From IMG/VR virus record IMGVR_UViG_3300045988_044010: a DNA stretch of 64,000 nucleotides; one strand, 5' to 3'. Position numbers and translations under genes: made by a program. Shown one piece after another: positions 15,272 to 50,514 of the stretch (the first letter of the stretch is position 1; each line of letters starts with the position of its first letter). The notes beneath the pieces are model-generated. The model was given only the letters and a program-made list of their open reading frames with translations. It was not told the DNA's origin and made no database searches. The DNA is from a virus.

Positions 15272-15303
15272 TCAAATTAAATCAATCCTAAATAAAATCA
15301 ATT

Positions 15304-16158: not shown

Positions 16159-16174
16159 TAGAAAGGAGGTAATT

Positions 16175-16618: not shown

Positions 16619-16633
16619 TAATAAGGGCTCTAT

Positions 16634-17227: not shown

Positions 17228-17241
17228 TACTAGCCTTTTTT
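17218..17241 (+). terminator. Rho-independent terminator
   Basis: GGCTAGT-TAAT-ACTAGCC (7-bp perfect stem) followed by TTTTTT. It overlaps the stop codon of the preceding gene. Confidence 0.7.
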
Positions 17242-17360
17242 CATTTATAGCCCCAAGAACAAACGCTATTAGTTCATATGGTCTATTGTATTACTTACTA
17301 CGTAAAGTGGCTAGAAACGCCTTAAAATACGTTATTATTATATTTAATAAATAATGCATT

Positions 17361-26456: not shown

Positions 26457-26457
26457 T

Positions 26458-28416
26458 ATGGCAGCAAATATGTACGATCAAGCCGCATAGGCTTAGTTTA
26501 TTAATACTTATGCTCCAATTAATTTTGGAGAATTGTTTAGAATTGGTGCAGCGCAGAAAGAAGAAATGGATAGAGCTGCCCAACAATTTGGAGCATAGTT
26601 ATAGAAGTTTGGAGAATTTAGATCACCGTCTGCTGTAGATACTCAAAGATATTATGATCTTACTACTGGTAGACAGGATATACAAGATGCTATAAATCAA
26701 ATGGTATCCAACCCAGATGCTTTGAAGGATGCTTCCTTTAGATCTAGCTTACAGTCGTTAATTAATAATGTAGATTATTCTTCATTAAGTAAGCTAAAAC
26801 AGAGTGCTGAAAATCTGGATGCTAGACAGAAGATGATAGCTCAGATGAGGGCTGCTGGTAAATATAATTAGAATTGGGATGATATAAATATAGGAGAATG
26901 GAATACTTTAGAAGGTGGTATTATGACAGATCTTGCTCCTATAGAGTATTTAACAGCTAACGCACTGAGTAACGCATACTTTGATAACTTAAAACCCAGT
27001 ACACTTAGTCCTGTATATAAAGATGGAGTAAAATATCAAAGACAAGGCATTACCTATGATACTTTGAAAGGTATAGCAGACGCTAGATTCAATGACTTAA
27101 TCAGAACTCCACAAGGTCAAAAGTATTATGAAGATGCATTAAGATCTGCTAACGGTAATGAAGATATAGCTAGAGAAGCATTTACTACCATGATAGCTGA
27201 TTCTCAGAGAGATAGAATAGTAGAACAAGAAACTGTAGATCCATATTGGTTAGCTCAAGCTAAACATTCAATGACAAGATCAGGTAGTACTGAGATAGTT
27301 AGACCTCAACCTACAAGACTTGATTTTCTTAATGATACCATGTATAAGTCTGTTAAGAATAAGGTAGGAGCTAGATTAGATACTGGTTATAGGGATTACA
27401 TACAAAGTCTTATCACTAAATACCCTAATACCAAAATAGCAGAAGATGCTAAGAAGGGATTAGCAAATATAGATAATATGACTGACAAAATGGTACAGTT
27501 AGGAGAAATGGCTAATTTATATGCTAAGAGATATGAAGCTACTGGTAGTGATCAAGATTTTATCAATTACAATACAGCTTTTAATATGGCAAGAGACTAT
27601 CAAAATAGATTACTACAACAAGGAAATAAATATGTATTAAGAAATGAGTTTCAAAATGTTGCTGGATTTTCTCCAATATCTGTATCTACTAATAAAGAAT
27701 TTAATACAGAGAAATATTTATCTGGTATAAATTCAGCATTAGATGTTATTAAAGGTAAAATAGGTATTACTAAGGATGATGAGTTATTAACTGCAGTAGG
27801 AGGAAGACCATCTACAGTGGTAAATGATAATGGTACTACTAACGAAATATTTAACTTTGATTCTAGTAATGGTTTCTTAATGCCTGAAACTGTATTCAAT
27901 ATAGCAGCAGATGTGAAACCTAGAGAAATTAAAAGAGCTGCTGGTACATTTAGAAGTGGAGACTTCCCTTTGAAAGAATTAGTAGAAGGCGGGAAGCTTA
28001 AGGATGTACAATTCAAACCAGATAATGGAGTTATTAAAATAGGAGATAATTTTGCTTTATCTGGAAAAATAAGAATACCCAAGGATGAAATAACTAGGTA
28101 TATCAGTACCGGCATATTCTCATTACCTAGAGGAAAGCAATACGAAACTACCAACTTCCCAACTACAGTGTAGAGCATTAGATCATCTATAGAAAATTTA
28201 TTTGGTGGTAGAAAGGTAACTGAGAAAGTAGGAGAAGACGGAAAAGAATTCTATGAAATTGAAAGTTATAAAGTATTACCTAAGGAAGATATATCCTCAG
28301 AATATTGGCAAAGAGTAAATCAATCTTGGCAAGGAGGAAAATCAGGGCTTGGCGGAGCTTCGTAGGCAAAAGATACTTATATGGATTCAGCAGAACAATT
28401 ATTATCAGGAGTATAA
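26458..28416 (+). CDS. Virion (ejection/cargo-type) protein
   Basis: ATG 26458 is joined to ORF 26923..28173 (frame 1). Read-through of TAG 28171 ends at TAA 28414-28416. Confidence 0.65.
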
Positions 28417-28421
28417 TTAAT

Positions 28422-31400
28422 ATGGCAAAACAAAAAATATATGATCCTAGTTTGATCAGTAGTGTAAGACAAAGAAGTCGTGATTATAGTAACTATCTAT
28501 CTCCCAAAGCGGATTTAGATAGTTATGTTCATACTATGTCAAATATTCCTACATAGGATAGTGCGCCAGATTCATTTGGTGTTTCAGATTATTTGTCTAA
28601 TGCATTCTATGATTGGAATCTTACTAGAAATGAAACTAATAAAGATACTGCTTTAGGTGAGTATGTCTTTCTACAAAAAGACTATGATATACTAACAGGA
28701 GCTCAATAGTACTTAGAAGGGGTAAAGAATGTTCTTTAGTTACGCAAAGCTATGGATACGGATCCTAATGCTAACACTCCAGAAAATAAACAGTTACTAA
28801 GAGAAGAATCTATCAAAGTATAGAACAATAAAGTTAATTATGACAAATTATTAGCTAAAGACTTTAATGATCAAGCTGTTCGTGATAATATATTTCCTGA
28901 AAGATTTGCTGGTAGACCTATAGACTTACAGATAGAGATCATACAAACTGTACTAGGTGATGGTGAAATAGATAGACAAGGTGTAATAGCTAGAAGAGAC
29001 GATGCTTTAAAGAAAGCTGAGAAATATAAAAAATTTGCAGAATATTGGCAAAGTAAAATGACATCTCAATATTATAGTGATAAGAAGAATTCTCCCGGTA
29101 TGGATCTAACGGATATAGACACGTATCTGTATAAACTACCGGGTCTTTTAGGTTCATCTGCTTCTAGCGCTGGCTCCTAGTTAATAGGTACTCTTGGTGC
29201 TATGTTTAGTACAAGAGGAGCAGGTGGTGTTATGGGTACTTTAGGCTCATTGACTGCGTTTGTAACAGGAAATGTGTACGCAAGAGATCAAGAATCTAAA
29301 GCTGAAGTATATCAAAACTATAAGTAGAATGTAATGAATTCTGCTAAAAAAGATGGTATAGACAAATAGGTACTTAAAGATGCTAAATCTCAAATGCAAG
29401 AAATGGGTTATACACAAGAACAAATAGATAATGATGATTTTGTGTATGAACAAATATTGTCTAATAAAGTAAAGGTAAATAACAATTCTTTAAACCGTAT
29501 AAGACTTAATAAAATGGATGGTTTAAAGTCTCTTTATACAGACAATATGGCTTTATCTGGAAGTGATATAGTTCAGACAGTACTAGAAGTAACTCCATTG
29601 GGTCCTATAGCTAAAAAAGTAAGAGGATTATCGTCTTTAAAAAAACTTGCTAACAGCAAATATGGTAAAACAGCTTAGGTAATTGCTAGTAAAACTGGAA
29701 ATCTTAAACAACAGTTAGCAGATAGAATTGACGATGTTGTAGCATTTGGCATAGAGAGTATAGACAAATTACCTAGACTTACTAGAAGAAAGGCAATAAA
29801 AGACATAGCTGGTAGAATTGTAATAACATCGGCTTTAGAAGGAGCAGAGGAAGGAGTTCAGTATATAAAAGGTCAAAGATATATAGATGGAGATTTTGAG
29901 TCTGATCCTAATCTGATCAGTAGCTACGTACGTAATTTAGGTACTGGCGCTAGATCTGTATTTGCTGCTATTACTCCATGGGATCCAGTATATTCAGATG
30001 ACTAGGAGTTTATGGAGAACTTTAAAGGTGGTGCTCTATTAGGCGGTTTGATGACTTCTGTAATAGGTACTGCAACTAGTATTAAACCTTTAAATGATCA
30101 GATATCTGGTGATAGATTCTTAGCTGCTTTATATGCAGATAGAGAGGCATAGAAAGATCAAGTTCGTAAGAACATACTATATGGTTCTAAGATAAGAGAA
30201 GGTAAATGGAATACTGTTGAAACAGCGTTTGATAATCTTGTTAACTCTAAAATAGATGGTATAGATGTAGCTGAAATCTAGGAAGAACAGAAAAGAGCTA
30301 GATAGATGTATAATATATTTACCTCTAATAGAACTGTAGCACAAGCTCAACAGTTAGACATAGATCCAAGAACCGAAGATTATGATATATTTGTAGCTTT
30401 AAAAGATCACCACGATCAGCAAGTAAGAGATGCTAGAGCTACTGCTACTGAACACAGAAGTGAAGCTGATAATTTACTGTATAGTCCTCAAGTATAGGAA
30501 TACATTGAGAAACTTAATATAAAAGATATAGATCAAGTATCTACTATGAGAAGCGCTATAGCAGCTAAAATTCAACTTGATACTATGTTCCAGTTATATA
30601 ACGAGTTTGAAAATAAACAAAAGACTAAACTAGAGTAGATACAAAAACATACTGGTACTAAAACATCAAAAGCAGATGTAGTACAGTTTGCTGGAATGCT
30701 TAACAAAGATATTAAATCATTCTAGGAACAGTATGAGAATCTGAAAAAACAGGTTACAGCTCTGGGTATCAAGGAAGAAGATTTAGAGGTTCCATCATTG
30801 CATCAAGATTTAAAAGAAGCTTATGAGAAAGTTATAGCTTCTGAATTAGATCTTAGACGAGCTGAAATGGAACAAACTATTATGGAATCCACAGATAAAG
30901 AAGCCATATAGGCTAAGATAAATAAGTGGAAAGATGTAGAGGATGCTAGTAATAAGTTTATGTAGCGTCTGGATGACTTATACTCAGGTAAAACAGAAAA
31001 GCAGAATGAACAAGATTCTGAAGATGTCAAACCTGAAGTGTATGAGCAATCACCAGAACCAGTACCTTCTACTATAGAGGATGAGGTTAAAGAACCCACT
31101 GATATTTCTGATAAAAGAAAATAGATAGTTTAGAACAGAGAATAGTATTTTACTCAGGAAAGAGATTCTAGAGGAAGTAATAAATTTGTTTTAAATCCAG
31201 ACAATACATTTGGTGATGCCTATAAAAATGCTAATATAAAACTTCAGCAGTCATATAAATTATTATTCCCAAATACAAAAAACTATTCTGACAATGCTGC
31301 ACAATCTAGGTTAGCATCTTCTAATCGTCATGGTGAAGTAGCTGATGCTTGGGAAGAGGTGTATAATCTTCGTAATCAATTAGAAGAAGAAGTAGGAGAA

Positions 31401-34400
31401 AATGGAGCAACACCTAAAGCAGAAGAATTAGCCAAAGCGTTAACTCAAAAATCTAATCAATTAATAGATAAAGCTAAGGAATCAGTAGAAATGTGGGAAG
31501 CATATAGTGATTTTATAAGCTCTGGAGAATACTATATTCATCAGCAATTAGAGAGAATTAAGGATAAACAACATAAATTAACTGAACAACAGAATGATGT
31601 AACTCCTACTAAAGTTCAAGAAGCTCCGAGTACTATTCCAGTACAAGATAAAACAAAGACAGAGCCAGCCCAAGTTGAAGATATGCCCACATTAGGTTCT
31701 ATACTGAGAGGTTTGATTAGTGAAGAAGATGCTAAAGTGATAGACTAGGCAGTAGAACCAGAAGTACCAACAGAACAAGTGACAGTACCTATAGAAGAAC
31801 CAATAACTGATAGTGATAACGATAAGGTGGCTCCTTTAACATATGATCAACAATTAGATCCATATTCTCATGAATTAAACTACCGTTTAAGTAGAATTAC
31901 ACAAGACAAAGATGGTAATTGGACTGTAGTAACTTATAATAAATTCCAAGGTATGGAAGAATACCTTAATAATAAGGAATTTTCAGAAATAAGCGCAGCA
32001 CCAGATTTTGTATCTGAAGTTACTAAAAACGGAGTACACTTTGAAGTACGACCATATACTGATGAAAATGGAGTTACGTCTGATGCTATATATGCAATAT
32101 TTAAATATAAAGATAAAGAATATGTAGCTTCTGTTAGAACAGAGAAAGGTTTAGCAGCTAAAAGAGGTGGTAGATTTAACAGATTACCTTATGAGCAACA
32201 ATAGTATATTAAGGAGAATTTGCAAAATCTCAGAAACAAAATACTTGAATTGAACAAACAAGTAAAACTTGATGCAGATTTATAGATAGTTCCAACATTT
32301 ATAAGAACTACTTCAGGTAGTATTGTGAATGAAGTAAATGCTGATGGAACCCCTAAGAATAGAAATATAATTGACTCTGCTTGGTAGAAAGTAAAGGATC
32401 CGTATTAGATTAATCCAAGTAATACTGAGATGGGTATTAGCACTGGACCTAAAGGTAAATCTATTATCCGTCTTAAAGATAGAGTATTATCATATAATGG
32501 TAAGTCTATGGGTAAACCATTCTGGATTATAAAAGCTCCTAATTCAGAAGGTGCAATGATAGATAAACCAATTCAGCTTAATTACAAGTACTTTAAAGAC
32601 CAACCTAAAGTAGCTGATCTAATATTAGATTTAGTAACCAGTAATGATCAATTTTACACAGATGCTAATGGAGTACAAACTTCTATTAATCCAAAATAGC
32701 TGTTGCACTTTATAGTTAACTTTGGTTCACATACTGCTACTAATCCTGAAGACACTAGATTAAATAATGAACAAATTCAATAGAGACTTAAAAAACAATT
32801 CTATATTGATGATAATAATAATGTAGTAATTGGTACTACTACATACAGTATAAGTGATCTATTAACTGACAAGAATATAAGAGAGCAAGCCAAACAGTAC
32901 ATAATGGACAATTTCCATTATGCTATTGATGAAGATGGTCTTAATAAAAATTGGTTAGGTGGAGATTTACAGAATGAAAACAGGGATCCTCACTTTGAAT
33001 CATTGCACTCTTTTTTCAAGAACAGCAATGTAGATAAATTGGTTATTGTTCCCGGAGAAATAGAATTTACTCCTAAAGATTTTGGTATAGAATATTAGGA
33101 TGGTAAGAGAGTTGTATCAAAAACTAATCCAAATGGTATAAGCGTATTAGGCTGGTATATCAAACAAGGTATACTTATGACTGATATTGCTGATACTTTA
33201 CAAGATGCTAACATATATGTAGATGATGTTACTATCCAAAGTAAGTCATAGAGGTCTGAACAGCAACAGGCTCAGCAACATATCAGTGAGGCTGTAGAAA
33301 GGGACTTTAGAAAAGAAAGTATCAGTTATACTGATGAGCAAGGTAATCAATAGAAACTTGATCTTGGTGAAATCTATAAGATATTAGATGGAAAGAAACG
33401 TGGTCCTAATATGACTGTAGAAGATTCTGTTAAAGACGGAATATGGTATAATGCTACAGAAAAGATGGATGTAGATCAAGCTAAACAGTGGATAGAAAAA
33501 ACTCTTGGCATTACTCCAGAAATAACCAATTATGTTATAGATGTTACGGAAGCAGGTCAAAGTGTAGTAGGTAGAGTAACTGTAGATTCTATTAAATTGT
33601 ATAATGATGCTCCAAAAGGAGTAGAATTTCATGAGGCTTGGCATAGAGTATCTCAGCTATGCATAGATGAAAAACATAGAAGAAAGATATATGATAGATA
33701 TAAGAAGAAGAGCAAGTCAAATCTCTCTGATGCGGCTATAGATGAAATCTTAGCAGAACAGTTCAGAGAATTTATGTTAAATGATGCTGCTAAATATGAT
33801 TTTGATACAAAGAATTGGTTTAGACGTATATTGAACTTTATTAAACTATGGGCTAGAACTGGTCAATATGCTTTAGCTAAAATATATGCAGACATTAATA
33901 GAGGTAAATATTACGGTATAAAACCTAATGAGGCTAATGTAGAAAGATTTAAATCAATATACAGTGACGAAGGTCCAAACTTTGAAGTAAATGGTCACCA
34001 ATTTAAAGCCATTACTAAGACTAAATAGTTTGATGATATAGTAAAAAGTCTCACTTATGCTTTCTTCCAATGTTCTTTTGTAGAAGGTAAATCTATTGAT
34101 TATACTGATATTAATCCAAAAGATTATAGTTTTGAAAGACTTAAATTAATAGTAGAAGCTTAGAAAAACAAGTTTCCTTCTGAAGCTCTTACTGAAATAT
34201 ATGACAACTTTGATAATATATTTGCTCCAGCTATAGCCTCTAAACTTAAATCATTAAATATAAGAACTATAGATAATGATAATGTTACAGCTAAAGAAGA
34301 GGGTGAAGAAGGAATAGATATAGGACAGCATACAGTAGAAGGGATGAATATATCTATTAAAGACAACGCCCCTGCTGAAGTTAAATTCTTCTTCTAGACT

Positions 34401-37400
34401 ATACCAATGAGACAAAGGAATGCCGATGGTTCATATTCAGCTAAGATAGATGCAGTTACCAAATTTCCTAGTTTTGTAGATTCTAATACTGCTTGGAATA
34501 ATGTACTAAAAGATTTAGCAGGGTGTAGAACTATTGCCAATATTATGGATAGAATAGTTCTACTGTCTCAAAATGATCAATTCTATGCATCGTTGTTGAT
34601 AAAGTTCGCAGATTTAGTTCAAAGATCTACTAATTCAGATCCTAATGTTGCTATAAACGCGGAAGCTATGTTAACTAAGTTAGAAACTGTGATTACTTCT
34701 GATATAAACAACTATGTTACTGCAAAAATATCATAGGATGAAGCCGGAATGACTACTATGAAATTAACAGACAATACTGTTGATATGAAAGCTATGCAAT
34801 ATCCTAAAGTGTGGTCTAGGAATATGTTTGAAAATTCTGGCATATTTAAATATAATGAGGATGGTATAGTAGTTGCACAGGATAACGCTAAGAGCAAAAT
34901 AAACACAGTTCTTAATGCCCTAAGTACGATCAAACAAGCATTTGTAAATAATAAGGGTATTATACGTACTAAGGATGGTAATTTTGATTTACATGAAATT
35001 CAGAATCAAGAGAGGCTTAAAGATTACATAGTTTCTATATTATAGGAAGTAGGAATTGGGATGGATAAACCTACTATAAATAAGATGTTGTTATCTGGTG
35101 ATTATGGTAATCCTAAGTCTGATCCATATACATTGCTAAACACATTTGTAGTAAATACTGTCAACTTTGGTGGATTAAGTAAAATATCTGATACATTAAA
35201 GATAATTCAAGATGCTATAAAACCTGATAATACTTTGTCTACTATAACAATAAGTGGTAAAGATACATTACCTACACAAATATGGAATGAAGTTGGCTAT
35301 GTTAAAGCATTGGCTAATTATTATGCTTTTGTACATGCTACAGACAAAGGATTAGGTAGTTTAGGTCCAGATGGTAATAGTTATTATATGGTTTCTCAGA
35401 ACAATTTTGCTAAAGACCGAGTAAACGAATTAATAACTGATCCAGAATTGTTCCACAATCTAGAAGCTGTAGTATATAATGAACATTCTATTATACTGAG
35501 TGCAGTAAGAAATGGTAATAAAAATATCCAAGTAGAGACTTTCATTAATTTTAAAGATGAAACTAGTTATGATGCTGGTAGAGATTACTTTAATATAACT
35601 CAAAGAGAAGACTACCTTGCAAAAATGACTGCTATCTTTAATGACAGAATAATATTCCCTACAGTAGCAGATAAGAAGACATATCATTTCATTAGAGGAA
35701 TTAAATTGCCTCACGAAAGAATTAGATTTACTAAAACAGGTAATGGTGTTAACATATTATACGGTGAACAATCGTTAGATACAATTATAGGTTATTGTCA
35801 AGATGAATTAAATCAGATTGAATTGTGTTTAAGACAAATTGACGATGATCCTACTCATTATGATAAAGATAAGAATATCCACTATAATGCTGATGGAACT
35901 ATAAACAACGACTGGTTGGATCCTTCTCGCAGAATTAAGAACTTTCATACTCCTAATGAATATAAGTATACAGATGATAAAGGTACAGAGCATACTGTAA
36001 TGTTAGAAGGTAACGGATCTAGATTCTTATTCTTAACCGGAGTATATGTTAATGGGAAGTTCATAGATTTTAACGATCCATCTAAATCTGCTATAGAAAA
36101 TTTATAGACTGCTAAAGATTATTTCTTTAATGCTCCTATTGATACTCAGAAACAATTGATAAGTGGACTGATCAATAGAAGAATGAAGGATGAATTAAAG
36201 ACAGCTAGAGATTTAGGGCTTATAGAAATTAATGAAAATCTAGATATCTGGAGTATTAGAAACAAACTATTAGATGATAATGTGCTTGCAGAAAGACAAC
36301 AAGCGTATGAATCATTGGATGCTAATAATGCAGAAGGCTATGCAATATTTGATATGCTTGCAGATTATACTATTAATAGTATTATATCTGTAAGTGAAAT
36401 AGAGAAAATATTCAATGGAGCACCTGCTTACTATAAAGTAAAATATGACAGAACCGGTATATTAGACTTATCTGTAGATAAGATTAAACGTCTTGGTTCA
36501 TTAACTTCTACTGGTACTAATAATAGGTTAGACTTCTTCAGTAATGATCCTATGAGAGAAGAATACGTAGTAGCTGAACTCAAAGATCATGAAATCCAAA
36601 GTAAACAATATTATACATATCGTAATCTATTTACTTTAGGTAATATAAAAGAAACCATTCAAGAAATGAATGGTGAAGAGGCTTGGAATGAAGTTAAGGA
36701 TCTATCTATACAAGAAATAGAGAAACAATATCCAGAAGAAGTAAAAATAGCCAAACAAGCTGCTGAAGTAGAAGTTAGAGGTTATAAAGAGGGAATAAAC
36801 GTAGCTGACGCTGCTGTTTACATAAGTCCTATAATGACCAGAGATCTTCTTAGAATGCGTGGACAGTGGAGCCCTGAAATAAAAGAAGCTTTCGATATAC
36901 TTATGAATGAAGATACTGCTGAACAGTGGGATTCTAATCCTGAGTTATATGCGAGAGCTAATAAGGTAATACTTAATGCTATGAAGTATATGGCATTTGG
37001 TACGAGATTTAATGAAATTCCCGGTTTAGGAATACCTTATTTTAATAAAATGGCTTTGTTCCCATTATTTAAATCTGTAGCTACTGGAGATATAAGAGCT
37101 TTGTATGATAGGATGATGGATGAAGATCCTAACAGGAGAATTGATATGGTTATGTTTGATTCTGCTGTTAAGGCTGGATCTAGAGCACCAATGAAAGCAT
37201 ACAGAGCTGCTAAAGACAGTGAAATAGAGTTAAAAGATGGACAGACTGTATTATCGGCTCATTTAACAGATCAATTACAAAGTGGAGAAGGTAATACTCT
37301 GAATGACTTTAATAACCTAGTTACATATACTTAGAAGTTTAAATACTTACGTCAACAGTTGGCTACAGATCCTCATATTCACGAGGAAACTATGGCTGGT

Positions 37401-40400
37401 ACACAGTTTATGAAAGTTAATCTATCTAACATACGTATGAATGATATGTATGGTAAAGAAGGAGAACAAGTATCTGGACAAACTATTAAGGACACAGTAA
37501 TGAATGCTCTAAATAGATTGTCTGATATAGGTAAAGCTAAACTACAAGGTCAACTATTTACTGAAGACGGTTAGGTAAATATAACAGCATTAGGAGAAAT
37601 GCTTACTGCTGATGCAAGAGAATCTGATGCCAATGATAATATTATCTCTGGTTTAAATACTAAAAATAATGCGTTTACTATACCATTGTCGGCATTATCT
37701 GACAATAAATGGTTGGAAAGCAGATTCATTTCTATGATCAACAAAGAAGTGATTGACGTACACATGCCAGGAGGTGCGTTTATTCAGCGTTCAGCATTTG
37801 GACTAGAAGCTACTAGTAAGAATGTTATTACTCCTAGTATGATAAATGATGGTAGAGCTTTAAAGGCTATAAATGAAGAAGGTTCTATGGATGCAGTAGT
37901 AAGTATAAATCTATTTAAGCACTTTATACCTGACTACAAAAAAATGACATTCAGACAAGCTAGACAATGGCTTATTGATCACGATATAATAGGACAAAAA
38001 GCTACTGCTAATTCTATAGGTTATCGTATTCCTACACAGTCAATTGCTTCTATATCTCCACTTAGATTTGTAGACGTATTCCCTGAAATAATGGGAGACA
38101 CAATCATGCTTCCAGAAGACTTTACGAAGTTAACTGGTTCTGACTTTGATATTGATAAACTATATGTAGCCAGATTCTCATATAACAAAGATGGTGTAAA
38201 GATAAACCACGATATAGCTAATAGTACAGAACAGGTTGCAAATGCCATTAAGAACGAAATGCTTGATGCATACATGAAAGTATTACTTACTAAAGATAAT
38301 ACCAATTCTCTCAAACTTTCTATTGATAATGCTACTGAGAATACAAAGGAAGTACTTAAAGATATAGAAAGTAATAGAGAAGTGCATCATGTACAACCAT
38401 TTGAAGTATATACTCCTTCATATCAAGAAGCTAGAAAAGCAGAATATACTGGAGGTAAAGCAGGTATTGGACCATTTGCATTGAATAATGCTCATCATAT
38501 TCTTACTTAGTTAGTAGGTTTAAAGATGGAAAGTAATGCATTTACAGAAGCTATGAAGATTGTAGATCTTGGTAGAATATACGATTATCCTACAGTAGGT
38601 ACTAAAAAGGGTGGTAGAATATTAGATTGGTTATCTGCTATGATTAATGGTTTTGTTGATATAGCTAAGGACCCATATATTGTACGTCTTAATGTAAACG
38701 CTTGGACATATAACATGGTATCCTTTTTACTACGTACAGGTAAAGGTAAATGGGCATTCTATTTTGTAGGTCAACCTATATTGAAAGAAATGGCAGAAGA
38801 AGTTCTTAAAACTAAAGGAAAATATGGTGTAGATAGAACTAAGTCACCATCGCAACTTGAGAAAGAAGCAATAGAATCTGTACTTGACAAATACGATCCA
38901 ACTGGTTCTTATAGGAAGGAATTCCAATATATTAATTCTAAACCAGAATTGAAAGCTAATGCTTATAAGAACTTGTTTGAAACATTTTTTGATGAAGATG
39001 GAAAAGAAACTAGCTATTGTAGAGAGTTATTGTTGAATAATGGAGCATACAATTATTTGAATAAGAGACAAGTAGGTATATATTACGCTTGGCTTGCTCT
39101 TAAACCATATGCTGATGATCTAGCTAATCTAGTAAAGTACTCCAAGATAGATACTAAAAAAACTGGTAAAACGTTTGCAGAACAACAAATATATTATAAT
39201 GGTATGCAAGATCTAGCAGAAGAGAGTCACTTTGCTCCGGGAGAGGTAAGACGTTTTTATGATGAAACTTTTATAGCTAGAAAAACAGAAAATAGTATTC
39301 CATTTGGATCTTCTATATTTAGGAATTTACTATTTAGAAATACTGATACCTTTATTAGCTAGTATAATACTGTATTATCACTTCTTGGTAGAAAAAATAA
39401 CGCAAACTCTAAACTATTAAATCCAATTATATCTGGAATGGAGGCTCAACTGAAAGCTGAATTCTTCAATCAATATGTAGAAGATAATAACATTGATGTA
39501 AAAGGTTTGTTCTACGGTAGAAATAGTATAGCTAAGAGGCTTAATAAGTTCAAAAATATGATATTTAAGGGAGAATATAAATATTTATTGAACGCTGATG
39601 GAACTATAAATAATGATTTCTTAAATTATTTATTACCTAATATAACACATGATGGTTTAGATTTTATTGATACTTCTGAATTATTAAGTTCTGACCAATC
39701 TCAGGCTAATAATCTTATTAATTACTGGAGAGAATTACTGGATGATCCAAATCCAGAGATTAAGAGATTGGCTAGAGATTTAGCAATATATGCTTTTTAC
39801 GTATCAGGGGACAATCCTTCAATGAATTCGTTCTTCCAATATCTTCCAAATAGTTTTAGAAAAGAAATAGGTTACACAGATTATATCCAAGGAAAGTTAG
39901 ATCAACTAGTAAACGGTTCCCAACTGGGGTATAAAAATAAAACTGATTTATTCTTAAACAATTGGACTAACGATAGTTTGGTTAAGCCAGTTAGCATGTA
40001 TAGTGGTAAGAACAATGAATAGCTTAGAGGAGTATACATAAACGATAAAGCCGCTATGCCAAACATAATAATGGGCTAGAGAGTAGGATCAGATAAACCA
40101 GCCATTAGACCTATTAATTGGATTAAAGTAGCTAATCAAGATGGTGTAGAAGAATCTTTCCCGTTATTTCCGCCTTATATTAAATTAAGAGATGGTTTGG
40201 GATTTGGTCCATAGAATTGGCACGTTTATACCATAATTGGTTATAAGTCATTTGTAGAGATACAGCCTAATGGTAAACCCGGTAAAACTGTTTATATACC
40301 TTTATATGGTTTAATATCTAAAAAAGGTTATAAATATAAAGGTCACTCTATAGTAGAGTATGGAAGAGAAACTGCATTTGATTTTAATAAAGAAAATGAA

Positions 40401-41918
40401 TGGGATTATGTAGAAGCATTGAATAATAAAGATGCTTTAGCAGATATGGCTCTTCAACAAGAAAGACAAGATTGGATAGACGATGCTCCTTATATTCATC
40501 ATATAACAGAACTACCTAGTTATTAGAACATGAATTATGCGTTAGCTAGACAAGATAGAGTATATACTGAAACGGAAGATGATATGAATGTGGACGATGA
40601 GTTCTTTCCTGTATTAGAAGAAAGAGAAGAACCTACAATTTTGGCTGATTATAGTAATATAAAAAATTACTTGAAAACATATAGTGGTATAATAACTAAT
40701 CTAGAACCTAATCAAATATTTGTATTTGGTTCAAATACACAAGGTAGACATGGTAAAGGAGCTGCTTTAACAGCAAAAAATAAATTTGGAGCAGTGTATG
40801 GACAATCAGAAGGTATACAAGGATAGTCTTATGCTATAATAACTAAAGATTTGACAAGTAGTGTACAACCATCTAGAACTCCAGAATAGATAGTTGAATA
40901 GATAAACAAATTATACACTTATGCTAGGCAGCATAGAGACAAAGAATTTTTAGTAGCATATTCTGGCACAGGTACTAATCTAAACTACTATTCTAATGAA
41001 GACTTAGCACGTATGTTTGCTAAATACCCTATACCAGATAATATAGTGTTTGAAAAATCTTTTAGTGAACTTGTGTTTAAATACATAAATAAAGAAATAG
41101 ATAAAATGTTTAATAACACGAATGCTGCAAAATTTATTAATCACTCTGGAGGAGCTCTTGGATCAGATACTATGTGGGGTAAAATAGGTGAAGAATATGG
41201 AGTATATTCTAAACACTATTACGCAGAAGGTCAAAAGACGCCTAATGGAAATACCGCATTGGGTAAACAATTATTATCTGAATCAGATGTTCATCTGAAG
41301 GAAGCTAATAAAAAATTAGGTAGATTATTTCCTACTAGTAAAGACTATGTGAATAATTTACTTAGACGTAATTGGTTTCAAGTAAAGAATGCTGACGCAG
41401 TATTTGCTATAGGAACTATAGCTGATAATGGTACTGTAAATGGTGGTACTGGTTGGGCTGTTCAAATGGCAATAGATAATAATAAAGATGTATATGTATT
41501 TGATCAAAGTAGGTTAAAATGGTATAGGAATAGAGATCATAAATGGTCAGAGGTAACCACACCAAAACTCACTCCTAATTTTGCAGGTATAGGTACTAGA
41601 GAAATAACGCAAGAAGGAATTCAAGCCATTAGAAATGTTTATGCTCTTACTTTTAGAGGGTAGATTGAAAACTATATTAGTCTAGAAAATAAATCAGATC
41701 TATTCCCATCTAGTTTACCACTAACTGGAGTTGAATTAATGGCATTATATGAACAAGGAAATTCAAGAATAAGTGAAGTACTTGATCAAATGGAAGATCT
41801 TACACCAGAAGAAAGATAGACTTACTTAAATGAATTTGCACAGTTTATGACAGACAATGAAGTTAATACGCAAGATAAACTTGAAGAAGCATTGAGAAAA
41901 TTCATATGTAACTTATAA
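28422..41918 (+). CDS. Giant multidomain virion protein (4,498 codons) containing a crAss-type virion RNA polymerase module
   Basis: Eighteen ORF-track fragments from 28305 to 41663 all lie in frame 0. I translated every gap and found no in-frame TAA or TGA until 41916-41918. A HEAWH zincin-like motif sits at 33630-33644 and a DFDID (DxDxD) motif at 38142-38156. Confidence 0.8.
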
Positions 41919-41930
41919 TAACCAGATAAT

Positions 41931-44900
41931 ATGTATAAATGTCCTAACAAAAATCTTCCTGAATGGAAGGAACTAGAAAAAGTTGTACCAGAAGTCGCAT
42001 ATACTATCTGGGATATGAATAATGGTCATGGTATAGATAAGGCTCCGAATGGGGAGCCTTCTATATTGTTTGACAATTTAATATAGAAACTAGGTAATAG
42101 AGAAGAAGCGATTAAAGCTAAAGCTAAGATATTCTCTAGAGATTTTATACAGAGTAAAGAAGAATACGCTAAAGATTCTAACGGAGAACCTATAGTTGAC
42201 GCTGTATTAACATTGCCACAAGTAACATATAATGAAGTAAATTTTGATTTACTGAATGAGGATCAAATTAGAGTGATATCAGAAGTATCTAACACTTATA
42301 ACAAGATACAAAAAGGTCTAAAAGATAGACTTAATGCTATTAAAAGATACTCAAATAAAAGCCCTAAAGTATGGAGATAGTTACAAACTTTAATACAACA
42401 ATTATCTAATTCTGAGACTGAACAAGGTATGTTACAATTCATGGAGCATATAGATGAATCAGTTAAAGACAGTATCCAGTTCTTGAATAGACCAATTGAA
42501 GATATAAATTCTAAATAGATTAGGTAGCTGTCCAATGATTATGTTGGATTCTACAAACCACTTATAGACGATATTGCATATTTAGTAGATACTACAGATT
42601 TATTCAAAGATAAAGAGAACTATCAACAGATAAAAGATAATCTAAGTCAATTACAACAATAGCTTAATCAAGTAAATAATAAATTTATTAATGTTCTCAA
42701 AAGTAAAGGTTATTAGTATTTGAAGAATTTCTTAAAATAGCAAGGAATGCCTAATGATATCATACAAGAAACTATAAATTGGTTAGATGATCCCAAACAT
42801 GATTCTAACATGTTTATGAATTGGTTCGGTATGGCTACTAATAGTAATAATGCTGTTCAACAAACTATAGCTAAAACGTTAAATGACGTAAAAAATGCTA
42901 CAGATAGAGAAACTCTAGATGTTGGTATAAAATTGACTAAAACATTAAAAGTTGCCAAAGATAAGTATGGTAACGATGTCTAGAAATTACTGTATGAAAA
43001 ACTTGATGATGGTACATATTCTGGATTAAGAGTTAAACCTCTTAATTATGGTCAAATGAGTAAAAACAGAAAGGAATTTCTGTAGAAATTAGCAGAAAAA
43101 TTATCTATAGAAAAAGATAGTGATGGACAATATATACTACCATAGGATGAAGATATTTAGAATAAATGGTATACTGCTATAAATAACTGGTATAATGAAA
43201 ATGCAGACAGAAAATATAAATCTGAATATTATACGGCTCGTAATAAAATATTATCGTTAAAAACCAGAGATGCTGTGAATGAGGTATAGAGATACATTGA
43301 TAACTTAACATCTCCTATTACTATTGATGGTGTAGAATATACTAACTTACTTAGTGAATCTGAATAGATGCAGTTAGAATAGTTGCGTAAACAAAAATCT
43401 CTATTATCAAATCCATATAATCTAGATGGAAGTGAGAAGACTGGAGATGATGCTATAATAGCTAAAGAATTATCTGAATTTAACAAGCTAGTATCTGAAC
43501 ATATAAAATATAAAACAGATAAAGCTAAATATGATGCAGACAGAGCCAAAGTAGCTAGTAAGTATGGGGAAGGATCCGAAGAGTTAAAGCTATGGGAAAA
43601 TAGAAACACTGTAGAGAAATATACTTAGGAATTCTATGACAGAATAGATAATCTAAATAAAGTAGAACAAAGTGATATATACTAGGATTTAGTTCAAAAA
43701 AGAAGACAGCTTCAACAACTGTTTAAAGATCCACGTACAGGCAAAATAGATGTTACTTAGTTATCTGATACTGAAAAAGCTGCACTATTATAGTTAGATC
43801 AAGATATCGCAGATGTAACTGAATTTAAAACAAAGGAAGAAACAGAAAGTAATTCAGATAAGTTCAGTGATTTTGCAGAAATGGCTTTTACTGATTAGTA
43901 TTTTATAGATATGGACAATGCTAAGAAAGCGGGAACATAGGCTTATAATGATTGGTTTATGGCTAACCATTATGAAGACAAAAGAGGATATATGTAGGCT
44001 GCATCTTATTACAAAGAGCTAAAACCGCTTCCTCAATATATACAATAGTATACAGAAAGAGCTCCTATAAACAAATATTCTACATTAGATCCTAGTTCTG
44101 ATTGGTATAATAACAATTGGGATCCAAACGGTCCGGCGATACAACCAAAAAAAGATAAGTATAACAATAAGAAGGCTTATGACGCTATGGCTAATAAACC
44201 AGAGGTATTAGACCTATATAATTAGATTGAAGAAATAATGTCATTAGCCAATAGTTATGTATCTTTCATGTAGTTCGCTAATGACAGTAGAATGCCTCAA
44301 ATACCTGCTAGATTTATGCAAGCACTTAATCGTAAAGATGGTCTTTTATCAAAATTAGGATATGCTTTTGAAGATTTAGCTACAACTAAAGCAGATGACT
44401 TAGACTTCGTGGAAGAATTCGCTACTATGCCTAATGGAGACCCTATAAAAGTAATACCTACTAGATTTATAAAAATGTTAGATGACCCAAATACTATATC
44501 TACAGACGCAGTAGCGGCTACAGTATAGTATTATAATATGGCAGCTAATTATAAAAATATGTCAAAGCATTAGGACGATATAGAGCTTATGCTAAATCTT
44601 TTAAAGTAGGTATCAATTAAAACAAGGAAGGACGTTAAAGGTCCCGGTTCTACTAATGTTTACAAGCAATCACAACTGTTAGTTGATAGACTGATGTATG
44701 GTAGAAATAAGAGTCCTATATTAGTAGAAGCGTTTGGTAAAGAATATAATGTAGGTAAGATGCTAGATATTGCTAGAGGATTTGTTACTAAAGTTAACCT
44801 ATCTGGTAACTTATGGTCTATTGGAACTAGCTTCTTTACAGATGCTACATATACTACTTTAGAGGCAAAAATGGGTAAATACTTTGACTTAGAAGATCTA

Positions 44901-46079
44901 AACTTTGCTAAGAGTGAATTCTTTAGGTAGCTTCCAGATATGATGGCAAACATTGGTAATCCTATACCAAACGGCAAAGTACCATATTTATTGATGTTAA
45001 ATCAAGTAGTAAAAGACAACAGAGAATTATTTGATAGATTAGACCAAAGTCAAGTATTACGTTCTATTAATCAGAACTTTTGGTTTGCAGGATATACACA
45101 AGCAGATTATACTGTTAAAAGCCACACGCTTCTAAGTATCTATCATAATTATCGTTTCGTAGATGGTGAAGGTTTTTTATCTAAACAATAGTATATTGAT
45201 AAATTTTATTCAGATGATAGAAAAAAAGGAGCAGTGGCATTTAAACAGCTTTCTACTACGTTATATGATGCTTATATCACTAATAATAAAGGCGAGGTTT
45301 CTGTAGATTCTAAATACAGTAAGTATGTTACTGAAAAGCTTTTAAATGATGTTAGAAATAGAATTGATATATTATCTAAAAGAATTGACGGTACTTTGAG
45401 AGAAGTAGATAAAGCAGCAGTTCATGCAAGTTCTATTGCATCTTACTTAGTATTACATCGTAACTTTATGGTATCTGCTTTATAGGATAGATTTAAGAAG
45501 AGACAATATAATCTAGATCTTGGTGCTATGGAAGAAGGTTATTATAGATCTGCTGGCAAGTTCTTATCAAATGTGTTAAAGAATAAACATTTTGCTCTTA
45601 CTTAGTTATTAGCAGATTATAATAATATGAAAGACTATGAACAATATGGAGTAAGAAGAGTACTTAATGAGTTAATGTTGGTAGCTGGTTCTACGTCAGT
45701 AGCTATTGCATTTGCTTCATTAGTAGATGGAGATGATGATTATGATATGTGGTTAACACAATCAATTACGTACTTGGCTATGCGTTCAGCATTTGAATTT
45801 AGAACTATGTATAACCCACTCGAATTAATTTCTTTAATCAAATCTCCTACAGCAGCTTTCAATTGGTTTGATAATTTATCAAGCTTCATTAATCTGATAA
45901 ATCCATTTGCATATACTGGAGATAGAACACCTTTTACTATAATAGATAGAGGAGTGTATAAAGGAATGCCTGTTATATTAAAGAATATAATTAAAGTAAC
46001 CCCATTTAAGAGTGCATTTGAAGCTTAGGATCCAAAAACAAAACGAAATTATCTATAGAATCAATTAATGAACTTCTGA
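41931..46079 (+). CDS. Large virion protein (1,382 codons), last gene of the late block
   Basis: Seven track ORFs (42747 to 45627) all lie in frame 0. Gaps were hand-translated and hold only TAG. It ends at TGA 46077-46079. Confidence 0.7.
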
Positions 46080-48572: not shown

Positions 48573-49406
48573 TTAGAATAAATCATCATCTATATCATCA
48601 GAATTACTTGTTCCTGTCCTTATTACTCCATTTAAGCTAAGATTCATATCTTTAGCTAATTTATCTAATGGAATATCTTCGAAGAGAACAACTTCATCCA
48701 AGAATGCTGAAATATTATCAAATGATTTAACTTCCATATGTTCGACGATGAAGTTCACAACTTCATCTATGTTCTTTACTCCTTTATCTTCTGCCATATA
48801 GCGTACGAATACAGAATTAGAATTTGCTTCATATTCTTTGAAATAACGAACACGTGAACAACGATCAAAGAAGTTATCGTCTATTTTATCTGTTTTATTA
48901 CAGGTCATCAATACCAGTTTCTTTGACGTAGCTTCTACACCATCTAAGAATCCTAACAGATCCTTAGTTTCCCACCAATAACTATTCTTCTCAATTTCGT
49001 CAAACATAACTACTACAGGAGTAGTAAAATGTTTGAAGAAACTAGTAAGTTTATTAGCAGGATAGTCATTTGCGACTATAATAATAGGTAAATTACTTTC
49101 TAAGGCAATACGTTTAGAGAGCATTGTTTTGCCTGTACCTTTAGTACCAGCAAGCAATATACCTGTTGTCTTTCCAGAATTTTCGGAATTAAAATAATTA
49201 AGTACACGCTTGATAAACTTATTATCTTCTTCTAGTTCATATAATTTATTTGGCATGTTTAAATCTCCATTCTCTTTGAGATAAGATCTTCCCTGCATTC
49301 TATCATACTCTAGATCGTATACTTTATTATTTATGAGCTCATAAGAAATACCTTCTAACTTAGGTTTAACTGTAATCTCATTTCCAATCTTAATAAATTC
49401 TGCCAT
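48573..49406 (-). CDS. AAA+ ATPase
   Basis: Walker A is GILLAGTKGTGKTML and Walker B is VVVMFDEIEK. Confidence 0.8.
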   Translation of the reverse strand: MAEFIKIGNEITVKPKLEGISYELINNKVYDLEYDRMQGRSYLKENGDLNMPNKLYELEEDNKFIKRVLNYFNSENSGKTTGILLAGTKGTGKTMLSKRIALESNLPIIIVANDYPANKLTSFFKHFTTPVVVMFDEIEKNSYWWETKDLLGFLDGVEATSKKLVLMTCNKTDKIDDNFFDRCSRVRYFKEYEANSNSVFVRYMAEDKGVKNIDEVVNFIVEHMEVKSFDNISAFLDEVVLFEDIPLDKLAKDMNLSLNGVIRTGTSNSDDIDDDLF

Positions 49407-49419: not shown

Positions 49420-49812
49420 TTATGTTTTTAACTTGTTGACCAATTCATCAACTTGTTTTTGCGTATGTACTATATAATAATCTATATCTAGATTATTTAC
49501 ATACAAATAATACTTAAAAAGTTTTTCACGCAAAGCCCATGCATCATTTGGATAGCCTTTGCATTCAATAATAAACTTATCACCTACAAAATCAGGTTTA
49601 TAAGTTATTGCTCTATATTTCTTATCACCAAAAGTAAAAGCTGGAAGCAGTTCGTATCGTTGAGTTTCATACTCAGCTTTGATATTCGACTCTTCCAGCT
49701 TCTTATATGTATATGTCTCAAGTTTGCTTTTAAACTTAATACCATTATACTCATTTGGTGTTGCATTGCGAATTTTGCTTTCGCTAGGTTTATTTCTTTT
49801 CCTCTACATCAT
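49420..49812 (-). CDS. PD-(D/E)XK endonuclease, DUF1064/Holliday-junction-resolvase-like; TAG at codon 3
   Basis: Hand translation gives MM-Q-RKRNKPSESKIRNATPNEYNGIKFKSKLETYTYKKLEE...RAITYKPDFVGDKFIIECKGYPND...LFKYY, ending at TAA 49420-49422. The ORF track misses it because the only ATGs precede TAG 49804-49806. Confidence 0.65.
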
Positions 49813-49945
49813 TAGTAATATTAGATTTTCTGGAAATAGTTTTCCTTTTATGTCCAAAGGCAATAAAAAAATTACTATTTACTAATTTGAATGGAAAAGC
49901 TAATGCTTTACGCAATCCTTTGGAAATATAATTAAGTTTGCTCAT
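49790..49945 (-). CDS. Small hypothetical ORF (51 aa)
   Basis: ATG 49945 overlaps the upstream TGA (ATGA). Its coding status is uncertain. Confidence 0.3.
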   Translation of the reverse strand: MSKLNYISKGLRKALAFPFKLVNSNFFIAFGHKRKTISRKSNITNDVEEKK

Positions 49946-50514
49946 TGTTTTATATAGTTTTTTATGAAATTAGCCAATTTATCAATAGATACAAAGTCAT
50001 AATTTGCAAAACTACTATCAATACCAACATCTATACGAATGTGGTCAGGTAATTCTGCTGAGTTTTGTAAATCTACCGATCCATGGCAATGACCGTGAAG
50101 CATTATACTACCTTTTTCAATATGTTCCCAAGAGAACATAGGAAAATGACACATAATTACTTCAATGTCTTTTGGTAATGACTGAAACACAGTTTTCTTA
50201 AATGTCATATTCTTTATCTGAGTAATATGATTGAAGAAACATCTGTGATTATCTGATACTTTATCATGATTTCCTAGTATAAGTACTTTATTTCCATTTA
50301 ATCTCTGAAATAGTTTTCGTTTTTCATCTGTTGTTCCAAATGCAAAATCTCCTAGAATATATACAGTATCATGTTTATCAATTCTACTGTTCCACTTTTG
50401 TATCATTTTCTCTGTTACCTCTTTCATATTATTACCAAATAGTTCTCTCCGTTTAGGATGAAAATCTAGTATTCTATTATGAAAGAAATGCCAATCTGCT
50501 GTGAACCATATCAT
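49942..50514 (-). CDS. Calcineurin-like metallophosphoesterase
   Basis: Motifs present are TADWHFFH, ILGDF, GNHD and HGHCHG. Confidence 0.8.
   Translation of the reverse strand: MIWFTADWHFFHNRILDFHPKRRELFGNNMKEVTEKMIQKWNSRIDKHDTVYILGDFAFGTTDEKRKLFQRLNGNKVLILGNHDKVSDNHRCFFNHITQIKNMTFKKTVFQSLPKDIEVIMCHFPMFSWEHIEKGSIMLHGHCHGSVDLQNSAELPDHIRIDVGIDSSFANYDFVSIDKLANFIKNYIKQ

What the first reader, a model, noticed from the sequence alone, without database searches (positions are those of the whole stretch)
49420..49812. Resolvase-like gene on the early strand, missed by the ORF track, with TAG as its third codon
The 535-nt gap between two minus-strand genes encodes a 130-aa PD-(D/E)XK endonuclease (...ITYKPDF...IIECKG...) resembling DUF1064/RecU-type Holliday-junction resolvases. 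Its only ATG codons (49812 and 49809) are followed immediately by TAG 49804-49806. No other ATG, GTG or TTG start would give a full-length product. It is the only minus-strand gene I found with an internal TAG. Placing TAG at codon 3 would make a DNA-maturation enzyme depend on the late suppressor, even though it lies in the early operon. That would amount to a translational timer.
Basis: partly seen in the sequence, partly recalled or inferred. Interest (0 to 1): 0.65.

Follow-up and report, generated by a model that had tools for sequence, protein, structure and literature searches.

The report
Amber-gated nuclease gene in a crassvirus
A gut crAss-like phage keeps a stop codon (TAG) at the third codon of its DNA-junction-cutting nuclease gene, so the enzyme can probably be made only once the phage's own stop-codon-reading tRNA appears; this is a conserved single-gene example of the already proposed "genetic-code switch as a timer".

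Summary
Window 49420-49812 (-) reads ATG ATG TAG followed by 127 codons of a DUF1064 / PD-(D/E)XK nuclease, and no other canonical start gives a full-length product. The window is a Suoliviridae (Buchavirus-like) crAss-like phage. Its + strand late genes are full of in-frame TAG (11.6 per 1000 codons). Its 19 other minus-strand genes use TAG only as a stop. Public annotations already read the orthologues with TAG=Gln.

The new result is comparative. A TAG at codons 2-10 is kept across diverged lineages whose synonymous sites are near saturation. Only 24% of late-gene TAGs survive at comparable divergence. TAG density is 78 per 1000 codons in the basic N-terminal tail and 1 per 1000 in the core. 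A CUA-anticodon tRNA lies on the same contigs, at the head of the TAG-rich late block.

The frameshift, alternative-start and pseudogene rivals fail. The gate is not universal: recoded Oafivirinae and Buorbuivirus lack it.

The most likely reading is that nuclease synthesis depends on the suppressor, which delays and probably limits it. This is a gene-specific variant of the published recoding-as-timer idea. Neither the timing nor the resolvase activity has been tested experimentally.

The parts
49420..49812 (-). Nuclease ('Holliday junction resolvase', DUF1064) coding sequence, 130 aa if TAG is read as Gln; TAA stop at 49420-49422
   Evidence: Orthologues are annotated in cr56_1, cr113_1, cr109_1 and cr60_1. 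Core dN/dS is 0.05-0.33.
49807..49812 (-). Tandem ATG ATG start codons
   Evidence: Every gated orthologue has an ATG 1-9 codons upstream of the TAG. Homology among recombinant variants begins at this ATG.
49804..49806 (-). In-frame amber codon (codon 3), the proposed translational gate
   Evidence: It is conserved at codons 2-10 in diverged lineages. TAG density is 78 per 1000 codons in the tail and 1 per 1000 in the core.
49768..49803 (-). Basic, predicted-disordered N-terminal tail (RKRNKPSESKIR) between the gate and the conserved NATPNEY motif
   Evidence: AF2 pLDDT is below 50 for residues 1-12. TAG-free homologues also have a K/R-rich tail.
49717..49719 (-). Invariant Glu (E29 in the 127-aa numbering) in helix 1, the putative first catalytic acidic residue
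   Evidence: Invariant in alignment A1; helix 27-38 in the model.
49558..49593 (-). PD...ExK catalytic motif (D71, E80, K82 in the 127-aa numbering)
   Evidence: Invariant in 35 sequences. Coordinates read.
49790..49945 (-). 51-aa ORF overlapping the nuclease start in another frame; its start is ATGA-coupled to the phosphoesterase stop; possible coupling ORF or insertion scar
   Evidence: No family hit. Upstream ORFs overlap the start in 15 of 17 representative loci.
49942..50514 (-). 190-aa phosphoesterase gene, an insertion between primase and nuclease relative to most relatives
   Evidence: PHROG 547 at 1e-45. Absent in cr56_1 and cr113_1, which have primase directly followed by resolvase.
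48573..49406 (-). Downstream AAA-type ATPase gene, which starts 13 nt after the nuclease stop
   Evidence: PHROG 2376.
390..46079 (+). TAG-recoded late and virion gene block (context that defines the code switch)
   Evidence: 131 TAG in 11,331 codons of seven large ORFs.

Best explanation
The gene is a functional DUF1064 / PD-(D/E)XK nuclease, annotated by homology as a Holliday-junction resolvase. Translation starts at ATG 49812 or 49809 and must then pass a UAG at codon 3. While only host release factor 1 reads UAG, ribosomes release a di-peptide and no nuclease is made. Once the phage tRNA with anticodon CUA accumulates, UAG is read as Gln and the full 130-aa protein is produced. That tRNA is encoded on the late strand at the head of the TAG-rich block. 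The protein yield is capped by suppression efficiency. The amber codon therefore delays, and probably also limits, synthesis of a branch-cutting nuclease that sits in the otherwise standard-code replication module. The enzyme then appears when branched replication products must be cleared for packaging and not while replication forks and recombination intermediates are needed. Shown here: the gene, the TAG, its conservation and positional bias, the tRNA in the same lineage, and purifying selection. Inferred: Gln decoding in this phage, the timing, the selective reason, and resolvase activity.
For: Sequence facts are. The genome is split into a TAG-rich late block and a TAG-free replication block. 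The nuclease family is supported. An orthologous TAG aligns with Gln codons: cr113_1 and L028-31 have HT#K where the window has HTQK, and ME#KKK# matches MEQKKK#. Gate conservation: of 64 IMG/VR loci and 12 named genomes, every lineage in the Buchavirus-like clade except cr4_1/L036-37 has TAG in the tail (cr6_1 has it at codon 33 instead), and so do Uncouvirinae cr115_1 and cr125_1. The neutral baseline is low: only 19 of 79 late-gene TAGs are retained between the window and cr113_1, and 0-16% at greater distance. dS between gated lineages is 0.8 to above 3. Within the gene, TAG makes up 44 of 66 Gln-type codons in the tail and 5 of 113 in the core. The flanking same-strand genes are TAG-free in all loci. 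A CUA tRNA occurs in cr56_1 and on the very contigs that hold the 96-98% identical gated gene. In cr56_1 it sits between 1,423 codons with 2 TAG and the TAG-rich terminase and portal genes. TAG=Gln has been shown by metaproteomics in crAss-like phages (PMC9523058). In crAss001, replication-module transcripts persist into the late phase, so later suppression can act on them (PMC8375218).
Against: There are no expression or proteomic data for this gene. No tRNA lies in the 64-kb window itself. TAG-recoding Oafivirinae (cr131_1, cr273_1, cr7_1) and Buorbuivirus cr4_1 have the same gene without any TAG, so the gate is dispensable. The lineages are not phylogenetically independent, so the Fisher p-value overstates significance. 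In many loci the TAG lies inside an overlap with the upstream ORF, which could add constraint, although in L041 and cr125_1 it does not. Resolvase activity of DUF1064 has not been shown by anything found here, and there is no significant PDB match.
Confidence: 0.7

Rival explanations
1. Neutral tolerance. The nuclease is needed only late, so a TAG is simply tolerated in this one gene. It has no selected regulatory role and persists through phylogenetic inertia.
For: The gate is missing in several recoding relatives with no obvious replacement. The tail is low-complexity and disordered, so Gln is easily accommodated there. AAG or CAG to TAG is a single-base change.
Against: Under neutrality TAG should spread over the gene at late-gene frequency, which is about 37% of Gln-type codons in cr113_1. 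Instead it is 67% in the tail and 4% in the core. TAG is retained across lineages with saturated synonymous sites, while late-gene TAGs turn over, with 24% retention or less. Double-TAG tails (MKKN#KK#, ME#KKK#) and the relocated TAG in cr6_1 suggest renewal rather than decay.
Confidence: 0.15
2. Dosage limiter rather than timer. The single amber codon mainly caps the amount of a potentially toxic nuclease at the suppression efficiency, and timing is incidental.
For: The sequence evidence is the same as for the gate. A single TAG competes with RF1, so yield must be below 100%. Nucleases are commonly kept at low levels (established knowledge).
Against: This cannot be separated from the timer reading by sequence alone. 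Placing the TAG at the very N-terminus is equally expected under both readings.
Confidence: 0.1
3. The TAG is bypassed. A +1 ribosomal frameshift from the overlapping upstream ORF (the 51-aa ORF here, primase elsewhere) enters the nuclease frame downstream of the TAG and produces a fusion protein.
For: In 15 of 17 representative loci an upstream ORF overlaps the ATG and TAG in the frame from which +1 leads into the nuclease frame, and it ends 14-56 nt after the ATG. One database protein, P0001, is such a fusion.
Against: In L041 (ATGA overlap) and cr125_1 the upstream ORF stops before the TAG. In L021, L063 and cr115_1 it runs into the DNA that encodes the invariant RNATPN motif. No common shift site exists. 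The fusion partners are unrelated proteins: primase, phosphoesterase and small ORFs. P0001 joins the frames upstream of MMQ and still contains the TAG. The conserved in-frame ATG would be left unexplained.
Confidence: 0.03
4. ATG...TAG is a mini leader ORF, and the nuclease initiates or re-initiates at a non-canonical codon downstream of the TAG, independently of the suppressor.
For: L063/64 have ATG immediately followed by TAG, a 'start-stop'. The window has an in-frame ATT 11 codons after the TAG.
Against: No ATG, GTG or TTG lies between the TAG and the conserved motif in any lineage, and the ATT is not conserved (Val GTA/GTT elsewhere). TAG-free homologues start at an ATG that gives the same K/R-rich tail, so the tail is part of the protein.
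Confidence: 0.02
5. The gene is a pseudogene, or the TAG is an assembly error.
For: A stop at codon 3 would inactivate the gene under the standard code.
Against: The same TAG is found in dozens of independent assemblies. The core shows dN/dS of 0.05-0.33 and invariant catalytic residues.
Confidence: 0.01

Closest known systems
TAG-to-Gln (code 15) recoding of late genes in crAss-like and other gut phages, with a phage suppressor tRNA proposed as a temporal switch (Yutin 2021 PMC7886860; Borges 2021 bioRxiv 10.1101/2021.08.26.457843; Pfennig 10.1101/2022.06.29.495998; Peters 2022 PMC9523058)
   Same: The phage family (Suoliviridae, formerly Delta) is the same. So are the codon, the CUA tRNA at the head of the recoded block, and the logic that an in-frame stop blocks translation until the code changes.
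   Different: Those papers describe block-wise recoding of structural and lysis genes and call the replication block standard or 'dual-coded'. None mentions the resolvase (0 occurrences). Here a single gene inside the TAG-free block carries one TAG, confined to the first 10 codons, while its core avoids TAG like its neighbours.
Annotated orthologues: cr56_1 gp33 YP_010112291.1, cr113_1 gp33, cr109_1 gp47, cr60_1 gp20 'Holliday junction resolvase'
   Same: The gene is the same, the position next to primase and ATPase is the same, and the TAG at codon 3-4 is read through in the annotation.
   Different: The window has a phosphoesterase gene and a 51-aa ORF inserted upstream. The records make no comment on the TAG.
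Pfam DUF1064 (PF06356) / T7 endonuclease I-like PD-(D/E)XK nucleases
   Same: The sequence match is above the Pfam threshold. The E...PD...ExK residues are invariant. BFVD structural neighbours are DUF1064, Endonuclease I, a TnsA-N domain and a 'Holliday junction resolvase'. DUF1064 was predicted to be a PD-(D/E)XK nuclease related to T7 endo I and TnsA (PMC1189080).
   Different: There is no significant match to any solved structure (best Foldseek E=0.42; T7 endo I by sequence E=0.19). Junction-resolving activity is an annotation, not a measurement.
Phage T4 gene 49 (endonuclease VII), the late-acting resolvase needed for packaging, with post-transcriptional control of its synthesis (from my own knowledge; Barth et al. 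1988 Genetics 120:329, seen only as a reference title in PMC2988022; the paper itself is not held)
   Same: The functional logic is the same: a branch-cutting nuclease whose synthesis is held back until late by control at the level of translation.
   Different: The nuclease fold is unrelated and the mechanism differs (mRNA structure and alternative transcripts rather than a stop codon plus suppressor tRNA). It is an analogy only.

Membership tests
Pfam DUF1064 (PF06356) | Score above the curated gathering threshold of the family HMM | tested here: met
   40 bits against a cut-off of 24.7, E=6e-10, profile positions 8-101 of 117. All 120 listed homologues carry PF06356.
PD-(D/E)XK nuclease superfamily | Conserved acidic residue in helix 1 plus the (P)D...(D/E)xK motif on the central beta-strands | tested here: met
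   E29, D71 (in PDF), E80 and K82 (in ECKG) are invariant in 35 sequences. They lie on helix 27-38 and strands 66-68 and 77-81 of the model.
PD-(D/E)XK nuclease superfamily | Alpha/beta restriction-endonuclease-like core fold | tested here: inconclusive
   AF2 model pLDDT is 85.5. PDB Foldseek gives no significant hit, though the list is dominated by PD-(D/E)XK enzymes such as BstYI, BglII, Can2, VRR-NUC and RecU. BFVD gives significant hits to DUF1064, Endonuclease I and TnsA-N models, E from 1e-6 to 1e-4.
Holliday-junction resolvase (functional class; T7 endonuclease I type) | Structure-specific cleavage of four-way DNA junctions by a dimer | not testable with these tools
   Only annotation-level support: PHROG 190 at 1e-14 and a sub-threshold Pfam Phage_endo_I hit at E=0.008.
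RecU-type resolvase | Detectable sequence or structural similarity to RecU | tested here: not met
   No sequence hit. RecU 5fdk ranks 18th in Foldseek at E=2.7, TM 0.33.
Code-15 (TAG=Gln) recoded phage gene dependent on a phage suppressor tRNA | In-frame TAG inside a gene under purifying selection, aligned with Gln codons in relatives | tested here: met
   ME#KKK# matches MEQKKK#, and HT#K matches HTQK.
Code-15 (TAG=Gln) recoded phage gene dependent on a phage suppressor tRNA | tRNA with anticodon CUA encoded by the same genome | tested here: inconclusive
   None lies in the 64-kb window. It is present in cr56_1 and on IMG/VR contigs 074447, 029815 and 036074, which carry the 96-98% identical gated gene.
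Code-15 (TAG=Gln) recoded phage gene dependent on a phage suppressor tRNA | Gln actually inserted at UAG; protein absent before tRNA expression | not testable with these tools
   TAG=Gln has been shown by metaproteomics for other crAss-like phages only (PMC9523058).

The most novel reading that the evidence does not exclude
The N-terminal amber codon is a dedicated gate maintained by selection. It is a single-codon device that ties synthesis of one potentially dangerous DNA-branch nuclease, sitting in a standard-code replication operon, to the appearance of the phage suppressor tRNA. It has been kept, or repeatedly re-created, at codons 2-10 across several Suoliviridae subfamilies. That would be the clearest natural evidence so far that phage stop-codon recoding is used for gene-specific temporal control rather than being a genome-wide drift in codon usage.
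Probability: 0.55. Interest if true: 0.65.

Novelty: new variant of a known kind. Interest (0 to 1): 0.5.

Why it matters
The idea that phages recode stop codons to time late-gene translation rests mainly on the block-wise distribution of TAG, which could also reflect strand, operon or codon-usage history. Here one gene in the TAG-free module carries a TAG only at its extreme N-terminus. That TAG is retained across lineages in which ordinary TAG codons turn over, while the rest of the gene avoids TAG. This is the signature expected of a codon kept for regulation. It also gives a simple experiment: change TAG to CAG in a single small gene, or use a reporter with and without tRNA-CUA. For annotators, it shows that 'standard-code' blocks of recoded phages can hide genes that are lost under code 11.

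Tried and rejected
+1 frameshift from the overlapping upstream ORF: rejected, because the position of the upstream stop relative to the TAG and to the invariant motif is inconsistent between lineages, and the one fused database protein, P0001, still contains the TAG.

Alternative or non-canonical start downstream of the TAG: no conserved candidate.

Pseudogene or assembly error: rejected by dN/dS and recurrence in independent assemblies.

TAG conserved only as a by-product of the overlapping primase C-terminus: weakened, because L041 and cr125_1 have the TAG outside any overlap and the window-type loci overlap different ORFs.

3' context of the TAG: late-gene TAGs are followed by A in 44% of cases against an A frequency of 37%, so this is uninformative.

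PDB sequence search: nothing significant. PDB Foldseek: nothing significant.

Barth et al. 1988 on T4 gene 49 could not be read, so the T4 comparison rests on my own knowledge.

I could not determine whether the TAG-free IMG/VR lineages L060-L068 are recoding phages, because only the replication-block flanks were held.

Full report
**1. What is in the sequence**

Read on the minus strand, window 49812-49420 is ATG ATG TAG followed by 127 sense codons and TAA. The 535-nt interval lies between an AAA-type ATPase gene (48573-49406) and a 190-aa phosphoesterase gene (49942-50514). The only other in-frame canonical start is TTG 49533, which would give 37 aa.

The translation downstream of the TAG matches Pfam DUF1064 above the curated threshold (40 bits against 24.7, E=6e-10). 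It also has a sub-threshold match to T7 Phage_endo_I and matches PHROG 190 'Holliday junction resolvase' at 1e-14.

Its ATG overlaps the phosphoesterase stop (ATGA), and it runs across the ATG-ATG-TAG in another frame, ending 14 nt after the TAG.

**2. Genomic context**

The window is a crAss-like phage of the family Suoliviridae. The nuclease region is 92% identical to Buchavirus cr56_1.

The + strand genes at 390-46079 contain 131 in-frame TAGs in 11,331 codons. One example is 49 TAGs in the 4,498-codon ORF at 28422-41918. The 19 other minus-strand genes contain none. Five of them use TAG as their first stop, with a back-up TAA/TGA 1-45 codons later.

ARAGORN finds no tRNA in the window. The closest complete genome, cr56_1, has exactly one tRNA, with anticodon CTA, on the late strand. 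It lies between 12 small genes (1,423 codons, 2 TAGs) and the TAG-rich terminase, portal and capsid genes. A 26-nt signature that spans its anticodon loop occurs on the same IMG/VR contigs that carry the 96-98% identical gated nuclease gene (074447 = L011, 029815 = L007, 036074 = L042). It also occurs on cr56-like and cr113-like contigs. ARAGORN confirms that these tRNAs are intact.

**3. Orthologues**

Public annotations of cr56_1, cr113_1, cr109_1 and cr60_1 already call this gene 'Holliday junction resolvase' and read through a TAG at codon 3 or 4. Database gene callers give MMQRKRNKP... and similar.

Across 64 IMG/VR loci and 12 named genomes the start region takes these forms:
- MM#RKRNKP and MT#RKRNKP
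- MKR#RKKKEGKV and MRRKR#LNSKV
- MKRKKK#STGKV and MKK#KKQGRV
- MKKN#KK#SKV and MRQKKSIA#KGKV
- MEQKKK#GKV and ME#KKK#GKV
- MKK#GKI and M#NQKIK
- MKRLTKKKG#KKV (cr115_1) and MKPKNKKK#TKGRV (cr125_1)

In every case an ATG lies 1-9 codons before the TAG. No ATG, GTG or TTG lies between the TAG and the invariant (K/R)NAT motif.

TAG aligns with Gln codons in two places. ME#KKK# matches MEQKKK#. HT#K in cr113_1 and L028-31 matches HTQK in the window.

Standard-code relatives (cr1_1, cr10_1, cr118_1, crAss001) have no TAG and start at an ATG that gives the same K/R-rich tail. Some recoding relatives also lack it: Oafivirinae cr131_1, cr273_1 and cr7_1, and Buorbuivirus cr4_1 with L036/37. cr6_1 lacks the tail TAG but has one at codon 33.

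On an NJ tree of the core, the gate fills one large clade, with cr4_1 as a nested loss. It appears again in Uncouvirinae, whose sister group Oafivirinae lacks it.

**4. Is the TAG more than chance or inertia?**

Four comparisons bear on this.
- (a) Other genes on the same strand have 0-1.1 TAG per 1000 codons in all 12 genomes, and none in the flanks of the 64 loci apart from spurious overlapping ORFs.
- (b) Ordinary TAG codons turn over. Between the window and cr113_1 (68-73% aa identity in the giant late proteins) only 19 of 79 TAGs are still TAG, and 20 are CAA or CAG. At about 30% identity, retention is 0-16%.
- (c) Synonymous divergence of the nuclease core between gated lineages is dS 0.8 to above 3, with dN/dS 0.05-0.33. 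The gene is functional, and neutral sites have been rewritten, yet a tail TAG remains.
- (d) Within the gene, across 44 distinct DNA sequences, TAG density is 78 per 1000 codons in the tail and 1.0 per 1000 in the core. TAG makes up 44 of 66 Gln-type codons in the tail and 5 of 113 in the core.

The sequences are related, so the nominal p-value is inflated. The direction and size of the contrast, the double-TAG tails and the relocated TAG in cr6_1 still argue for maintenance rather than drift.

**5. Rivals**

*+1 frameshift from the overlapping upstream ORF.* This was attractive at first. In 15 of 17 representative loci an upstream ORF (primase or an inserted ORF) overlaps the start in the appropriate frame and ends 14-56 nt after the ATG. 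It fails for these reasons:
- In L041 and cr125_1 the upstream ORF stops before the TAG.
- In L021, L063 and cr115_1 it continues into the DNA that encodes the invariant RNATPN motif.
- The would-be fusion partners are unrelated proteins.
- The single fused database protein, P0001, joins the frames upstream of MMQ and still contains the TAG.

*Module boundary.* Four close variants have unrelated sequence upstream, and homology starts at A-ATG-A(T/C)G-TAG. The exchangeable gene module therefore begins at this ATG and includes the TAG.

*Other rivals.* A downstream non-canonical start has no conserved candidate. A pseudogene is excluded by dN/dS and the invariant catalytic residues.

**6. The protein**

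The AlphaFold2 model has pLDDT 85.5. The first 12 residues (the basic tail) are disordered, and the rest is an alpha/beta core. E29, D71, E80 and K82 are invariant.

No solved structure matches significantly. The PDB Foldseek list is nevertheless dominated by PD-(D/E)XK nucleases. BFVD gives significant matches to DUF1064, Endonuclease I, TnsA-N and one 'Holliday junction resolvase' model. DUF1064 was predicted long ago to be a PD-(D/E)XK nuclease related to T7 endonuclease I and TnsA (PMC1189080).

Membership in DUF1064 and PD-(D/E)XK is therefore met. 'RecU-type' is not supported. Junction resolution itself is untested.

**7. Mechanism and what is known**

That crAss-like phages reassign TAG to Gln mostly in late genes, carry suppressor tRNAs, and may use this as a temporal switch is published (PMC7886860, bioRxiv 10.1101/2021.08.26.457843, 10.1101/2022.06.29.495998). 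TAG=Gln has been confirmed by metaproteomics (PMC9523058). None of these papers, nor a 2026 preprint on an amber-reassigned crassvirus, mentions the resolvase or an N-terminal amber codon in the standard-code block.

In crAss001 the replication and recombination module is 'middle' (onset at 10-30 min), and its transcripts persist to the end of the cycle (PMC8375218). The persistence also makes it plausible that a later-appearing suppressor can act on existing nuclease mRNA.

The best-supported model is that nuclease synthesis depends on the suppressor and is therefore delayed and capped. T4 endonuclease VII offers a functional analogy, from my own knowledge: it is a packaging-stage resolvase whose synthesis is held back post-transcriptionally.

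**8. Verdict**

The gene and its read-through are already in public annotation, and the general principle is published. The conserved, N-terminally confined, single-gene gate inside the TAG-free module is, as far as I could find, undescribed. It is a good experimental handle on the recoding-as-timer hypothesis. Interest is moderate (0.5).

Noticed in passing
window 49790-49945 (-): A 51-aa ORF whose start is ATGA-coupled to the phosphoesterase stop. It overlaps the nuclease ATG and TAG in another frame. It matches no Pfam or PHROG family. In 15 of 17 related loci some upstream ORF overlaps the nuclease start in this same relative frame.
   Followed up: partly
window 49813-50514 (-); L001 1483-1536; L042; L006: The primase/nuclease junction is an insertion hot spot. 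The window has a 190-aa phosphoesterase gene there. cr56_1 retains only its first 7 codons (MIWFTAE) fused to the tail of the 51-aa ORF. L042 and L006 have yet other arrangements. Homology among the variants begins exactly at the nuclease ATG.
   Followed up: partly
window 53702-54673, 57957-58763, 59643-60275, 60143-60925, 63402-63821 (-): Five of 19 replication-block genes end in TAG, with a back-up TAA or TGA 1, 2, 20, 45 and 6 codons later. They would therefore gain short C-terminal extensions once the suppressor is active.
   Followed up: partly
window 28422-46079 (+) compared with L069 and L071: Mosaicism. The nuclease region is 92% nt identical to cr56_1, but the giant late proteins are only about 30% aa identical to cr56_1 and 68-73% to cr113_1.
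   Followed up: no
L009 2209-2781: One IMG/VR variant of the phosphoesterase gene has TAG at codon 8 (TGG to TAG at the Trp of MIWFTADW). This is either an inactivating mutation or a second amber in the replication block.
   Followed up: no
L073 (cr6_1) about 20097: The cr6_1 nuclease has no tail TAG, but it has a TAG at the YTY[K]KLKE position, a Lys that is invariant among close homologues. This implies K-to-Q at that site if TAG is read as Gln.
   Followed up: no
L082 (crAss001) 19971-20468: The annotated ATG start of crAss001 gp72 (locus 20064) cuts off the conserved RNATPEVY motif, which is open upstream. A GTG upstream is the likelier start.
   Followed up: no
L074 809-1170, L078 2575-2938, L080 2838-3207, L081 2311-2667: tmRNA (SsrA) genes are annotated in the early or replication blocks of several TAG-recoding Suoliviridae (cr115_1, cr131_1, cr273_1, cr7_1). 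This may be relevant to ribosome rescue during a code switch.
   Followed up: no
L083, L086, L088, L093: A tRNA-Met (CAT) lies about 800 nt downstream of the tRNA-CUA in several related contigs.
   Followed up: no
P0001 (Logan contig, 23 kb): A 174-aa database protein in which an indel fuses the 51-aa ORF homologue in frame to the nuclease upstream of MMQ. It is a single contig and may be an assembly error.
   Followed up: partly
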